A stretch of 64,000 nucleotides of DNA from a virus (Duplodnaviria > Heunggongvirae > Uroviricota > Caudoviricetes), in IMG/VR virus record IMGVR_UViG_3300042691_036629, positions 53,500 to 117,499 of that record. One strand, 5' to 3'. This document shows, one piece after another, positions 12,537 to 15,676 of the stretch (the first letter of the stretch is position 1; every line of letters starts with the position of its first letter). Under the pieces are notes generated by a model that had not been told where the DNA came from, did not search any database, and was given only the letters and a program-made list of their open reading frames with translations. Position numbers and translations under genes: made by a program.

Positions 12537-13658
12537 ATGAGAAAGTATAACCAATTTATTTTAGAAAAATTAAATAATGATTTAGTCATCTTATTAGAGG
12601 GGTATTTATATTCGACATCCGAATTTCATAGAAAGATTTCCGAATTATCTAGACAATCTGGTAGAGTGGGTGATATTTCTAAAATCATTGATGAATTCTT
12701 AAATAGAAAAGCAGATCCATTTCATCAATTAAAAGATGATTCAATAACTCAAAACTTTTTTGATACTACCAATCGAGTTGATATGGTTAGTTTCACTATG
12801 AATGATAAAGTTCCTAAAGATTGGGATAATGATGAAGATCCAGATTTGCCATACACATTAGGGAGATCTGAAATGAAAATTGGTAGAGTTTTGAGATCTA
12901 TTGTGTCTATGATACAAAGTTCAAAATCTATTAATTTTAATTTAACCGATAAAGATGTTGAAGACTTTGTGAACGCATATAAATCATTAGAAATAAATGA
13001 TAAATGGCAGTTTAAAATTGTTAAAGGTGATGATATTATCAAATATTATAACACATCTAATTACTTAAACACTAATGGGACTTTAGGAGGATCTTGTATG
13101 GGTGATGCTAGGGGTAAATTAAAACTATATGTGGAGAATGATAATAAAGTTGGTCTTTTAATTCTACACAATAAAGAAACTGATCAAATTTGTGGTCGAG
13201 CTTTAGTTTGGAAACTAAAAAAGTCACCTTGTGATGCTAAATATTTTATGGATAGAGTTTATGTAAATAATGATTCTGATGTTATAAAGTTTAAAAATTT
13301 TGCTAATGAGAATAAATTTTTATATAAACAGAAAATGAATAGTCATACGGAAACAAATGTTTGTTTTTTATATGATAATAAGGAATTTTTTGGCGAAATA
13401 TCTGTCAAATTAGAAAAATCAAACTTCAATAAATATCCATTCATTGATACACTTTGTTTCTTAAAAGGTAAAAAGTTATCAAACTTACCATCTAAGAATT
13501 GTAATTGGTTACATGAAACGGATGGTGGTGATGATCAATGTTATGAATGTGATGGTGAATGTTTCTCAAGTTACAATGGAATCTGTGATGTTTGTGGAGA
13601 TGGTCACATCTTTTTGAAAAGAAAAGGAATTGAAACTAAAATAAATAGATTAGTATGA
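12537..13658 (+). CDS. SCM-core paralog family protein with C-terminal Cys-rich Zn-ribbon
   Basis: 373 aa. Contains GTLGGSCMGD...VGLLILH...GRALVW...FMDRVYV...YPFIDTL, then CYECDGECF...CDVCGDGH. Confidence 0.55.
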   Translation: MRKYNQFILEKLNNDLVILLEGYLYSTSEFHRKISELSRQSGRVGDISKIIDEFLNRKADPFHQLKDDSITQNFFDTTNRVDMVSFTMNDKVPKDWDNDEDPDLPYTLGRSEMKIGRVLRSIVSMIQSSKSINFNLTDKDVEDFVNAYKSLEINDKWQFKIVKGDDIIKYYNTSNYLNTNGTLGGSCMGDARGKLKLYVENDNKVGLLILHNKETDQICGRALVWKLKKSPCDAKYFMDRVYVNNDSDVIKFKNFANENKFLYKQKMNSHTETNVCFLYDNKEFFGEISVKLEKSNFNKYPFIDTLCFLKGKKLSNLPSKNCNWLHETDGGDDQCYECDGECFSSYNGICDVCGDGHIFLKRKGIETKINRLV

Positions 13659-15676
13659 GATATATAAAAGAATTTTTCAATTACATAAAAGAAGAATGGT
13701 CAAAGAATGAACCAATTCCAGAAATATTAGATAAAGAAAAAGGATTAGCTGTTTTCCTAATCGGTGCTCCCGGTATTGGAAAGTGCTTAGAATATAATAC
13801 ACCCATTTTAGTGAATAATAAAATGACTAAAATTGGTAAATTGATAGATAACTATAACACCGAATCAAAAATTGGTGAAATAAATATTCCTGTTAAAAAC
13901 TTATATGTTAAATCATTAAATGATAGTGGTGAGTTTGTGGAAAATGAGATTTCGAGTTTATATAGAGGCTATTCAGAAAAGTTAATAAATATAAAAACAC
14001 AAACGGGTGTTGATATAAAAGTTACACCTATACACCCATTATTAGTTTTAGAAAAAAACGGTGATATTATTTGGAAAAAATCATCAGAAATAACAATAGA
14101 TGATAAGTTAGCCAGACCTAGAATAATAAATAACACTTTTAATAATAAATCAAAAATAAGTAATGAATTATCAAGGATTATTGGTTATTCGTTAAGTGAT
14201 GGTAATTTTATAAAAAATAAAAATAGTAAATTTCTAACACTAACAAATATAGATATTGATATAATAGATGATTTTAGAAAATGTGTCGAAAAAGAAAATA
14301 AAATATTAACAGTAAAATCTAAAAAAATAAGACATAGTGTTCAATATTCAGATGATATTAAATTAGGAAATCGAAGATTTAAAAAAGATAAATATGATTT
14401 TATTTCAAATATTTCTGAAATATGTGGTGATTATATTTTTGGCAACAAATCACATAAAGTTAGAATTCCGGATGATATAATATCAAACAGTGAATCATTA
14501 AAACATTTCTTAGGTAGTTATTTATCTTGTGATGGTTCTGTATTTGAAAATAGAGTTGAATATTACACATCGTCATATGAAATGGCTACTGATTTATCTT
14601 ATGCACTTTTAATGTTTAATTTATTATTATAAATTAATTCCACCATGTCATCATTTGGTATAAATCCACCAATATTTGTATTAGTTTTTTCAATTGGTTT
14701 AATTTTTTTTCTACTACATCTAATATATTTATTTAATATTTCTCCAAATAAATTAAAATCATCACTTGTTACCCTGACTATATATGATAAAAAATCCTTA
14801 TTATTTAAATTTGTTTTTTTATTTTTTATTACCGAATTTATACCAGAAGATGAAACTGGATATAGATTTACTAGAAGTTATAAATATAGAAGAGTAATAA
14901 CGAAAAAACGTTTTAATAAAATATGTAATTTTTTAAATGAGAATAATGTTTATATACCAGAAACATATATTAATCATCACAATAACTTATTTTTTGATAA
15001 AATAACTAATATATCAACAATAGAACATAATGATTATGTTTATGATATAGTCTTAGATAAACATCATAACTTCATAGGTGGTAACTTACCAACAATACTA
15101 CATAATTCACACTTTGTGAATAATTATTTACATACAAAAAATACAAACATTAAAGACTTCTCAACTGATGATATTTCACTTCTTTACACAAAAGATCCAA
15201 ATGTTTATTATAAAGGAAAAGAAAAAGAAGAAGGTGGTAGAACAAAAAATGCGTCTGAATTAAACTTAATGAAGATGAAAGGTTTTATGAAAACTGGTCA
15301 AAACTTTATCTATGATACAACCGGTGCTGGTAAAGAATATACTGATACTGGTTATGAACACATTAAGGATATATTTGATTTAGCAAGAGAGAATGGATAT
15401 GAAATAGTTTTTATTCACTTATTATCTACATTAGAAACATCAATTGAACAAGATAAATTAAGATCGAGACACGTTGATCCACACTATATTAAATGGGCTT
15501 ATGCCAAACAAATGGGTGGTGAAGTGGATGGTGTTAAGGTAACTGGTAATATGAAAAGATATAAGGAATTAGGACCAGATAAATATTATGTTATAACTTC
15601 TATTGATAAAAAATATAAGTTTTATAAATTAGAAGGAGATAAACTTCTTAAAAGAAAAAATGATAAATGGGTTTAA
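13655..15676 (+). pseudogene. P-loop NTPase gene carrying a LAGLIDADG intein, interrupted by in-frame TAA at 14630-14632
   Basis: N-extein ends LIGAPGIGK and C-extein begins SHFVNNYLH, so the spliced Walker A is GAPGIGKS. The two track ORFs (13655..14632 and 14645..15676) are in the same frame, separated by a single ochre codon. Confidence 0.5.
13784..15106 (+). mobile_element. intein (Hint plus LAGLIDADG endonuclease domain) in Walker A motif
   Basis: Starts CLEYNTPIL and ends [23 protein letters not shown] before Ser. Two LAGLIDADG-like blocks: IIGYSLSDGNF and LGSYLSCDGSV. Confidence 0.7.

What the first reader, a model, noticed from the sequence alone, without database searches (positions are those of the whole stretch)
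13655..15676. Intein in the Walker A motif of a P-loop protein, with an in-frame ochre codon inside the homing-endonuclease domain
The extein reads ...LIGAPGIGK|C...HN|SHFVNNYLH..., so splicing would restore GAPGIGKS. The 441-codon insert has Hint blocks (CLEYNTPIL...; ...[26 protein letters not shown]) and two LAGLIDADG blocks. However a TAA at 14630-14632 lies in frame between the two track ORFs, and the following 40 codons are very hydrophobic. Three outcomes are possible: (i) a sequencing or assembly error in an A/T homopolymer-rich stretch, (ii) a decaying intein whose stop inactivates the host gene, making the P-loop protein a pseudogene, or (iii) stop-codon readthrough or recoding. The host protein also carries the N-terminal MRYIKEFF propeptide-like motif.
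Basis: seen in the sequence. Interest (0 to 1): 0.7.

Follow-up and report, generated by a model that had tools for sequence, protein, structure and literature searches.

The report
Intein broken by internal 227-bp inversion
A self-splicing protein insert (intein) in the ATP-binding loop of a phage kinase gene is real, but its "in-frame stop codon" and odd hydrophobic stretch arise because 227 bases inside the insert have been flipped, so they are a mutation that splits the gene in two, not recoding or a sequencing error.

Summary
A 441-codon LAGLIDADG-type intein (13784-15106) sits between K and S of the Walker A motif GAPGIGK|S of a 232-aa P-loop kinase. A TAA at 14630-14632 is in frame, and a hydrophobic stretch follows it.

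Bases 14618-14844 (227 bp) of the homing-endonuclease domain are inverted.
- The minus strand there is open. It encodes 76 residues that align without gaps, 63% identical (E 6e-23), to the matching part of an uninterrupted same-site intein, P0038 (653 aa).
- blastn against that locus gives plus, minus and plus segments that abut at 14617/14618 and 14844/14845.
- Flipping the segment restores one 673-aa ORF, completes the Pfam LAGLIDADG_3 match (41.6 to 58.8 bits) and gives a confident intein/endonuclease fold.

The TAA and the hydrophobic residues are antisense read-out. The same sequence occurs, 100% identical where DNA was fetched, in assemblies from at least five samples, so it is not a one-off error. 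TAA is the usual stop codon here and the window encodes no suppressor tRNA.

The exteins and all splicing residues are intact, and no diverged copy of the inverted form was found, so the event looks recent. The endonuclease is dead and the kinase gene is fractured into two ORFs. It is probably non-functional. Trans-splicing as a nascent split intein is possible but untested.

The parts
13655..13783 (+). N-extein of the P-loop kinase (43 codons, ends with Walker A GAPGIGK at 13763-13783)
   Evidence: It aligns with intein-less alleles P0002 and P0193.
13784..15106 (+). Intein, 441 codons: Cys1 at 13784-13786, block B TPIH within 14018-14047, terminal His-Asn at 15101-15106
   Evidence: Pfam Intein_splicing and LAGLIDADG_3. 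PDB intein hits. 60% identical to the uninterrupted same-site intein of P0038.
14177..14209 (+). First LAGLIDADG motif (IIGYSLSDGNF), acidic residue present
   Evidence: Conserved in P0038.
14507..14542 (+). Second LAGLIDADG motif (FLGSYLSCDGSV), acidic residue present
14618..14844 (-). Inverted 227-bp segment of the endonuclease domain. Read on the minus strand it encodes GINSVIKNKK...IGGFIPNDDMVELIYNNK(L), the beta-hairpin and helix that complete the second LAGLIDADG half-domain. The position of the left breakpoint is uncertain by about 15 nt (14603-14618).
   Evidence: Minus-strand blastn segment 14621-14844 against L006 (74% identity, E 2.5e-36). Peptide against P0038: 63% over 76 aa, no gaps, E 6e-23. 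Skew reversal. Flipping gives one 673-aa ORF. LAGLIDADG_3 rises from 41.6 to 58.8 bits and HMM coverage from 5-48 to 5-80. AlphaFold pLDDT is 75-93 over this segment.
14630..14632 (+). The in-frame TAA. It is the antisense read-out of the native ATT-TAT (Ile-Tyr of ...ELIYNN...) inside the inverted segment.
14645..14845 (+). Start of ORF2 (ATG 14645) and its 67-residue hydrophobic leader, which is antisense-derived sequence with no homologue
   Evidence: No similarity to P0038. GRAVY +1.2.
14846..15106 (+). Native-orientation C-terminal part of the intein: linker helices plus Hint blocks F and G ([26 protein letters not shown])
15107..15676 (+). C-extein (189 codons plus stop), starting with the +1 Ser nucleophile. 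It is intact.
   Evidence: 89% amino-acid identity and dN/dS 0.087 against the syntenic intein-less allele in L008.
14648..14674 (.). Left arm of an imperfect inverted repeat (27 nt, 78% complementary; partner 14827-14853). It does not coincide with the breakpoints and probably reflects chance similarity between the GINSVI and IGGFIP coding sequences.
   Evidence: Breakpoints.

Best explanation
A canonical class-1 intein with a LAGLIDADG homing endonuclease invaded the Walker A codon boundary (GxxGxGK|S) of a phage-encoded P-loop kinase. In this lineage a 227-bp piece of the endonuclease domain (14618-14844) was later inverted in place. An inversion does not change length, so the downstream frame is kept. 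Inside the segment the ribosome now reads the antisense of an A-rich coding sequence. That gives one TAA (from native ATT-TAT) followed by a T-rich, hence Phe/Leu/Ile-rich, peptide. Shown consequences: the endonuclease has lost the beta-hairpin and helix of its second half-domain, so homing activity is gone, and the precursor is cut into ORF1 (N-extein, Hint-N and about 1.5 endonuclease half-domains) and ORF2 (67 junk residues, linker, Hint-C and C-extein). Inferred: the event is recent, and the kinase is most likely no longer made in useful amounts, so this is a freshly fractured gene on its way to decay or loss. A minority possibility is that the two products still associate and trans-splice.
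For: - Minus-strand homology to the intact same-site intein at both protein and DNA level, with abutting breakpoints.
- Identity in the inverted segment (63%) equals that of the flanking intein (60% and 59%).
- Flipping restores a single 673-aa ORF, completes the LAGLIDADG_3 profile match and yields a confident model (pTM 0.83). Its best structural matches are endonuclease-bearing inteins: TliVMA 7qss (TM 0.70) and PI-PfuI.
- Strand composition flips over the segment.
- The five places fetched, from five samples, are 100% identical out of 17 contigs that carry ORF1. No inverted repeat long enough to confuse an assembler lies at the breakpoints.
- TAA is the normal stop and the window encodes no suppressor tRNA.
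- One stop in 75 codons is unremarkable for this antisense frame (genome rate 0.046 per codon).
- Recency: the minus frame is still open, the exteins and catalytic residues are intact, extein dN/dS is 0.087, and the ORF1 cluster has a single member with no diverged copies.
- Weak hint that the gene is dispensable: in the nearest relative's contig the intein-less gene appears as 46-aa plus 186-aa ORFs, implying a -1 frameshift within about 25 nt of the insertion site. No DNA was seen for that contig.
Against: - I did not see raw reads, so a minority native orientation in the population cannot be excluded.
- All available copies are clonal, so there is no independent evolutionary replicate of the inversion.
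- Loss of function is inferred, not shown. The lineage was recovered in several samples, the exteins show no damage, ORF2 has an ATG 12 nt after the stop, and this genome does not use Shine-Dalgarno sites. Expression of both halves is therefore plausible.
- The left breakpoint is ambiguous by about 15 nt.
- A 4-codon length difference from P0038 lies near the distal junction. It could be a small deletion that accompanied the inversion or simply divergence.
Confidence: 0.85

Rival explanations
1. Nascent split intein. The inversion converted a contiguous intein into two adjacent ORFs. Their products re-associate through the Hint halves and trans-splice, so the kinase is still made and the arrangement is tolerated or maintained.
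For: Cys1, TxxH, terminal HN and +1 Ser are all intact, and so are the exteins. ORF2 has an ATG 12 nt after the TAA, and genes here lack Shine-Dalgarno sites, so re-initiation is plausible. The lineage carrying it occurs in at least five samples. [quoted passage not shown] Fractured phage genes with split inteins are known (PMC2677866).
Against: The fragments are unlike natural split inteins. Int-N is 282 aa and carries misfolded endonuclease remnants. Int-C carries a 67-aa strongly hydrophobic antisense leader (GRAVY +1.2, one window at 2.66) that is likely to aggregate or insert into a membrane. No diverged lineage preserves the arrangement, so there is no sign of selection for it. The nearest relative may carry a frameshifted copy.
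Confidence: 0.15
2. Assembly or sequencing artefact: the real genome has the native orientation or a sense codon at 14630.
For: No raw reads were inspected. The region is AT-rich with short palindromic AATT/TATAAATT words near the junctions.
Against: The five places fetched are identical, and they come from assemblies made by JGI, Logan and NCBI submitters from five samples, out of 17 contigs that carry ORF1. There is no inverted repeat of k-mer length at the breakpoints that could make orientation ambiguous in a de Bruijn graph. A single-base error cannot explain 76 codons of antisense homology.
Confidence: 0.05
3. Programmed stop-codon readthrough or recoding, or a reversible DNA-inversion switch, controls kinase expression.
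For: The downstream frame is preserved and only one stop interrupts it. An imperfect 27-nt inverted repeat lies nearby.
Against: The plus-strand peptide after the stop has no homologue. TAA is the main terminator and the window encodes no suppressor tRNA. One stop in this antisense frame is within expectation. The repeat arms do not match the breakpoints. Only one orientation was seen in every contig fetched. None of the adjacent ORFs screened gave a recombinase match.
Confidence: 0.02

Closest known systems
P-loop (Walker A) LAGLIDADG inteins, for example archaeal RFC small-subunit site-a inteins, and the VMA, MCM-a and DnaB-b inteins
   Same: The insertion point is the same within GxxGxGK|[S/T]. 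The blocks are class 1: Cys1, TxxH, HN and +1 Ser/Thr. Outside this kinase family, the nearest sequence relatives are inteins in proteins that read GPPGVGK|C...HN|TTAA (P0040-P0046), and JGI even named ORF1 'replication factor C small subunit'. The P-loop is a documented intein hotspot (PMC4760082). The best structural matches are TliVMA and PI-PfuI.
   Different: The host is a small phage AAA_33/zeta-toxin-like kinase rather than a replication ATPase. This copy carries an internal inversion, so it is not a contiguous ORF.
The same-site intein in related phage kinases (P0038 cluster, 653 aa; P0039, 589 aa; fragments P0213 and P0214)
   Same: Same host family and same insertion site. Intein identity to P0038 is 60%, higher than extein identity (48-52%), which suggests horizontal spread by homing.
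   Different: P0038 is uninterrupted with both catalytic Asp residues. P0039 has a degenerate endonuclease in which both LAGLIDADG acidic residues are lost. The window copy is the only one with the inversion.
Fractured genes and naturally split inteins of environmental phages (Dassa et al. 2009, PMC2677866)
   Same: Two adjacent same-strand ORFs, each carrying half of an enzyme plus half of an intein, in a phage-like genome.
   Different: There a free-standing endonuclease gene lies between compact split-intein halves and the arrangement is conserved across loci. Here the halves are separated by 12 nt, keep bulky endonuclease remnants and antisense junk, and occur in one clonal lineage only.
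Inteins with an antisense-encoded LAGLIDADG endonuclease (Gorbalenya 1998; Gogarten 2002; Gosselin et al. bioRxiv 10.1101/2025.01.02.630785)
   Same: Part of the LAGLIDADG coding sequence lies on the strand opposite to the intein splicing domain.
   Different: In those inteins the whole endonuclease is a complete antisense ORF and the sense frame stays open, so the intein still splices in cis. Here only 76 codons are antisense, they have no usable start codon, the rest of the endonuclease is in sense, and the sense frame is closed by a stop.

Membership tests
Class 1 intein (Hint splicing domain) | N-terminal Cys/Ser nucleophile, block B TxxH, C-terminal His-Asn, +1 Cys/Ser/Thr | tested here: met
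   C at 13784, TPIH within 14018-14047, HN at 15101-15106, S at 15107. These columns are invariant in the alignment with 9 inteins.
Class 1 intein (Hint splicing domain) | Significant match to the intein splicing-domain profile and to solved intein structures | tested here: met
   PF14890 scores 40.6 bits (ORF1), 72.5 (read-through) and 78.7 (reconstructed), against a cutoff of 35.8. PDB phmmer hits have E 3e-9. Foldseek 7qss has E 3e-24 and TM 0.70.
Class 1 intein (Hint splicing domain) | Insert absent, with exact boundaries, from homologous host alleles | tested here: met
   P0002, P0188, P0193 and P0194 read GAPGIGKS[FY]FVNNY without the insert. L008 is syntenic.
Class 1 intein (Hint splicing domain) | Single uninterrupted reading frame with both exteins (cis-splicing precursor) | tested here: not met
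   TAA at 14630-14632. A single ORF is obtained only after flipping 14618-14844.
Class 1 intein (Hint splicing domain) | Protein-splicing activity | not testable with these tools
   Needs expression and a Western blot or mass spectrometry.
LAGLIDADG homing endonuclease domain | Two LAGLIDADG helices with acidic residues and two complete alpha-beta-beta-alpha-beta-beta-alpha half-domains in one polypeptide | tested here: not met
   Both motifs and their Asp residues are present. As encoded, LAGLIDADG_3 stops at HMM position 48 of 82. Positions 48-80 are supplied only by the minus-strand peptide, which forms strands E283-304 and helix H306-318 in the reconstructed model.
Naturally split intein / fractured gene | Two ORFs, each an extein part fused to an intein part containing the full set of splicing blocks between them | tested here: met
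   ORF1 has blocks A and B. ORF2 has blocks F and G plus the +1 Ser.
Naturally split intein / fractured gene | Split arrangement conserved in diverged relatives (evidence of maintenance) | tested here: not met
   The ORF1 cluster has one member. The only other ORF2-type sequence (P0196) is identical apart from its last residues. Relatives are contiguous or intein-less.
Naturally split intein / fractured gene | Trans-splicing of the two products | not testable with these tools
   Needs a co-expression experiment.
Antisense-endonuclease intein | Complete endonuclease ORF on the antisense strand with the sense frame open | tested here: not met
   The minus frame is open from 14877 to 14602, of which 76 codons (14844-14618) are homologous. 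It has no start codon until near its end, and the sense frame carries a stop.
Programmed readthrough / recoding | Stop conserved in homologues, meaningful downstream peptide, and reassignment or a suppressor tRNA | tested here: not met
   P0038 and P0039 have no stop. The downstream peptide has no homology. TAA ends 36 of 48 genes. The only tRNA is Leu with anticodon UAA.
Site-specific invertible DNA switch | Inverted repeats at the breakpoints, a nearby invertase, and both orientations in the population | tested here: not met
   The repeat arms 14648-14674 and 14827-14853 do not coincide with the breakpoints 14617/18 and 14844/45. The screened neighbours gave NUDIX, IF3, a weak poly(A)-polymerase/nucleotidyltransferase match and a T9SS-tail match, or no match; none is a recombinase. 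The five places fetched share one orientation. Read-level heterogeneity was not tested.
AAA_33 / zeta-toxin-like P-loop kinases (host protein) | Profile match above threshold and an intact Walker A after splicing | tested here: inconclusive
   The spliced extein restores GAPGIGKS. PF13671 scores 24.2 bits (cutoff 27) and PF06414 21.7 (cutoff 22.3). PHROG matches are 'ATPase' (E 2e-8) and 'polynucleotide kinase' (E 9e-7). Several homologues carry a precomputed PF13671 annotation.

The most novel reading that the evidence does not exclude
The locus is a snapshot of the birth of a split intein. A small inversion inside the homing-endonuclease domain turned a contiguous P-loop intein into two adjacent ORFs whose products still trans-splice to give an active kinase. 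That would show that split inteins can arise in one step by an internal rearrangement, without invasion by a free-standing endonuclease gene.
Probability: 0.15. Interest if true: 0.65.

Novelty: new member of a known kind. Interest (0 to 1): 0.3.

Why it matters
- It removes a false lead. An apparent in-frame ochre codon in an intein, which could be taken for recoding or a base-calling error, is the signature of a small in-place inversion.
- The diagnostic pattern is general and cheap to check: an in-frame stop, a T-rich hydrophobic stretch, reversed strand skew and an open opposite strand.
- For intein biology, the kinase family now shows four states at one P-loop site: empty, intact endonuclease, degenerate endonuclease and inverted or fractured. 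The intein is more conserved than its exteins, which fits active homing among freshwater phages.
- If the two ORFs trans-splice, this would be a natural one-step intermediate between contiguous and split inteins.
- It also corrects a database annotation: ORF1 is labelled 'replication factor C small subunit' only because its intein resembles RFC inteins.

Tried and rejected
- A megablast of 12000-17500 against GenBank phages gave no match.
- The search for related loci with the minus-strand peptide found nothing in IMG/VR or in JGI metagenome contigs. An exact 29-mer from the segment also found nothing in metagenome contigs. These collections do not contain even the window's own sequence, so the searches say nothing about a native-orientation allele.
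- I first modelled the inversion as recombination between the 27-nt imperfect inverted repeat (flip of 14648-14853). That keeps the frame but leaves the TAA and 13 junk codons, and gives only 42.9 bits for LAGLIDADG_3. I rejected it in favour of 14618-14844 once the intact homologue was available.
- An 8-nt perfect inverted core (TATAAATT / AATTTATA) near both ends does not give an open frame when used as the breakpoint.
- A search for the 46-aa N-terminal ORF of the frameshifted relative returned only two fragments of other intein-bearing alleles. The DNA of that contig was unavailable.
- The sigma-70 promoter and terminator scan over the locus was at background level.
- I asked whether the near-openness of the sense frame across the inversion needs explaining. 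It does not: 3.5 stops are expected and 1 is observed (Poisson P about 0.14).
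Full report
**Observation**

The window carries two same-frame ORFs: 13655-14632 (325 aa, ending in TAA at 14630-14632) and 14645-15676 (343 aa). The first runs MRYIKEFF...LIGAPGIGK and then CLEYNTPIL.... The second ends its intein part with ...NLPTILHN and continues SHFVNNYLH.... The insert 13784-15106 is exactly 441 codons.

Profile and structure-database searches confirm an intein with a LAGLIDADG endonuclease.
- Pfam Intein_splicing scores 40.6 bits for ORF1 alone and 72.5 bits for the read-through, against a cutoff of 35.8.
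- LAGLIDADG_3 scores 41 bits against a cutoff of 22.5.
- Sequence hits in the PDB are VMA, CDC21 and RadA inteins.
- Intein-less alleles of the same 232-246-aa 'predicted kinase' read GAPGIGKS[FTY]FV... with nothing inserted.

A six-frame translation shows that the minus strand is open from 14877 down to 14602. It reads ...SSSGINSVIKNKKTNLNNKDFLSYIVRVTSDDFNLFGEILNKYIRCSRKKIKPIEKTNTNIGGFIPNDDMVELIYNNKLNIKSA*. This composition is typical of proteins in this genome. The plus-strand reading of the same DNA is Phe/Leu/Ile-rich instead. A-minus-T and G-minus-C counts change sign across about 14615-14855. That pointed to an inverted piece of coding DNA.

**Proof from an intact homologue**

An exhaustive HMMER search with a repaired intein found P0038 (653 aa, E 1e-150).
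- It belongs to the same kinase family.
- Its intein sits at the same Walker A position.
- It is uninterrupted.

Its sequence ...SYSLLKLGINSVIKDKKTKLKGKEFYSKIIRITGDDYNKFGETLNKYISCKRKLIKINPKTNANIGGFLPNNYFVKLIKDNNL... matches three pieces of the window in this order:
1. the plus-strand ...SYALLMF;
2. the minus-strand peptide;
3. the plus-strand EDETGYRFTRSYKYRRVITKKRF....

The supporting numbers are these.
- The minus-strand peptive aligns to P0038 residues 320-395 with 48/76 identities, no gaps and E 6e-23.
- The plus-strand peptide has no similarity to P0038 (E 0.35).
- At DNA level, blastn of 13655-15676 against the P0038 gene (locus L006) gives three segments:
  - a plus segment, 13700-14616 to gene positions 46-956;
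  - a minus segment, 14621-14844 to positions 1181-958 (74% identity, E 2.5e-36);
  - a plus segment, 14881-15178 to positions 1233-1530.
- The breakpoints are therefore 14617/14618 and 14844/14845. The left one is ambiguous by about 15 nt, because GCACTTTTAATGTTT reads plausibly in both directions.
- Flipping 14618-14844 gives one 673-aa ORF with no stop.
- Identity to P0038 is uniform across it: 60% before the segment, 63% within it and 59% after it.

- The LAGLIDADG_3 match rises from 41.6 bits (HMM positions 5-48) to 58.8 bits (positions 5-80 of 82).
- An AlphaFold model of the reconstructed intein has pTM 0.83.
- In that model the formerly antisense residues form a beta-hairpin (283-304) and a helix (306-318) with pLDDT 75-93.
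- Foldseek places the model next to the TliVMA intein (7qss, TM 0.70), PI-PfuI and PI-SceI.

**Why the stop and the hydrophobic stretch appear**

An inversion keeps length, so everything downstream stays in frame. This is why the two ORFs are 'in frame'. Inside the segment the ribosome reads the antisense of an A-rich (Lys/Asn/Ile-rich) sequence. That gives T-rich codons: GRAVY is +1.2 for ORF2 residues 1-67, against -0.49 for the native peptide. The TAA arises from the native ATT-TAT (Ile-Tyr).

In this antisense phase, stops occur genome-wide at 0.046 per codon. About 3.5 would be expected in 75 codons, so one is unremarkable. There is no need to invoke selection for openness.

**Not an error and not recoding**

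- ORF1 with this exact sequence is recorded on 17 contigs. Five places from JGI 3300008114, 3300008264, 3300021575, Logan SRR9661227 and NCBI GCA_031546785.1 were fetched. All are 100% identical to the window over the locus.
- No inverted repeat of assembler k-mer length lies at the breakpoints.
- TAA terminates 36 of 48 large ORFs in the window.
- The only tRNA is tRNA-Leu with anticodon UAA.
- The best nearby inverted repeat (27 nt, 78% complementary, 14648-14674 and 14827-14853) does not coincide with the breakpoints. None of the neighbouring ORFs screened matches a recombinase. Only one orientation was seen.

A site-specific switch is therefore unsupported.

**State of the gene**

- Cys1, TPIH, the terminal HN and the +1 Ser are intact, as are both LAGLIDADG acidic residues.
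- The spliced extein is 89% identical to a syntenic intein-less allele in L008, with dN/dS 0.087.
- The ORF1 cluster has a single member. No diverged relative carries the inversion, and no native-orientation allele of this strain is in the protein collection.

Together these indicate a recent event.

The shown consequences are two.
- The endonuclease has lost an essential part of its second half-domain.
- The precursor is fractured into ORF1 (43-aa N-extein plus 282 intein residues) and ORF2 (67 junk residues, 87 intein residues and the 189-aa C-extein).

Whether any kinase is still made is an inference. I consider loss of function more likely, for three reasons:
- the fragments are bulky and partly misfolded;
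- ORF2 has a strongly hydrophobic leader;
- no lineage shows that the arrangement is maintained.

Trans-splicing cannot be excluded.
- Genes here lack Shine-Dalgarno sites, and ORF2 has an ATG 12 nt after the stop.
- The endonuclease domain is dispensable for splicing, and inteins split between blocks B and F can trans-splice (PMC2874743).
- Internal stops in decaying endonucleases are an accepted route to split inteins (bioRxiv 10.1101/2025.01.02.630785).
- Fractured phage genes with split inteins exist (PMC2677866).

**Context**

The window looks like part of a large AT-rich (28% GC) phage genome.
- It encodes nicotinamide phosphoribosyltransferase, homing-type endonucleases, IF3, a weak poly(A)-polymerase/nucleotidyltransferase match, a NUDIX hydrolase and a protein with a T9SS sorting domain.
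- Contigs reach 172 kb.
- The host protein is a small AAA_33/zeta-toxin-like P-loop kinase, but its profile scores are just below the Pfam cutoffs.

The kinase family shows four states at this one site:
- empty alleles (P0002, P0188, P0193 and others);
- an intact intein (the P0038 cluster, 18 members);
- an intein with a degenerate endonuclease (P0039, both catalytic acids lost);
- this inverted copy.

P0213 and P0214 are two further intein-bearing fragments. The intein is more similar to that of P0038 (60%) than the exteins are (48-52%), as expected for horizontal homing. Outside the family, the nearest inteins interrupt a GPPGVGK|C P-loop (P0040-P0046), and the P-loop is the commonest intein site in RFC small subunits (PMC4760082). 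This resemblance probably explains JGI's label 'replication factor C small subunit' for ORF1.

**Verdict**

The interesting readings, recoding and readthrough, are refuted. The explanation is a degenerative 227-bp inversion in an otherwise ordinary P-loop LAGLIDADG intein. Novelty is modest: a new member of a known kind with an unusual, cleanly resolved lesion. The residual novel reading is a one-step natural origin of a split intein. I give it about 15% probability. It is directly testable by co-expressing the two ORFs.

Noticed in passing
window ORF starts 4197+, 5137+, 6810+, 10733-, 11907+, 12537+, 13655+, 22881+, 27623-, 33663+, 40496+, 45075-, 56484+, 62834+, 63130+: At least 15 otherwise unrelated ORFs begin with a shared N-terminal motif of the form M[KR]x[IL]Kx[FY]xx[FY] (MKYLKLFENF, MKYLKLFEKF, MKHIKSFKVFES, MKWIKRFESF, MRYIKEFFNY and so on). 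Similarity stops after about 12 residues. This is far more frequent than composition predicts. There is no evidence that it is a propeptide, and its function is unknown.
   Followed up: partly
window, 3-10 nt upstream of many ATG starts (e.g. 4197, 10733-, 11907, 12537, 21150, 33663, 40496, 56484): A recurrent (T)AATATATA box lies immediately upstream of start codons, and there is no Shine-Dalgarno sequence. It may be a phage promoter close to the start codon (short or absent leaders) or a translation-initiation signal.
   Followed up: no
JGI 3300059473 contig (2524 bp, no DNA retrievable); corresponds to window 13655-13790 joined to 15107-15676: The nearest relative (its C-extein differs by 2 aa, P0190) has no intein, but the kinase is called as a 46-aa ORF overlapping a 186-aa ORF. 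Simulation shows that this requires a -1 frameshift between nt 104 and 139 of the coding sequence, which is within about 25 nt of the intein homing site. It could be a repair scar after endonuclease cleavage, imprecise intein loss or a sequencing error.
   Followed up: partly
window 18255-18449 (inside the 574-aa T9SS-tail ORF 17064-18788, minus strand): Contig L002 (JGI 3300021575) is identical to the window except that it lacks these 195 bp. This is an in-frame population-level indel in a putative surface or secreted protein.
   Followed up: no
window 13655-14632 (ORF1) in public databases: ORF1 is annotated by JGI as 'replication factor C small subunit'. That label is probably driven by similarity of its intein to inteins in RFC-type P-loops, not by the 43-aa extein.
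   Followed up: yes
window 15780-16313 (-), 16337-17098 (-), 23351-24931 (-), 47960-48029 (-): The phage-like genome encodes an IF3 homologue, an ORF with a weak poly(A)-polymerase head-domain match (possibly a CCA-adding type nucleotidyltransferase), a nicotinamide phosphoribosyltransferase and a tRNA-Leu (anticodon UAA). These are auxiliary translation and NAD-salvage genes.
   Followed up: no
window 42571-43166 (-): Two adjacent 99-aa ORFs start almost identically (MTLEELREKSLEEKVNYIFDYV and MTLEELRDRPLEEKVDYICDYV), which suggests a tandem gene duplication.
   Followed up: no
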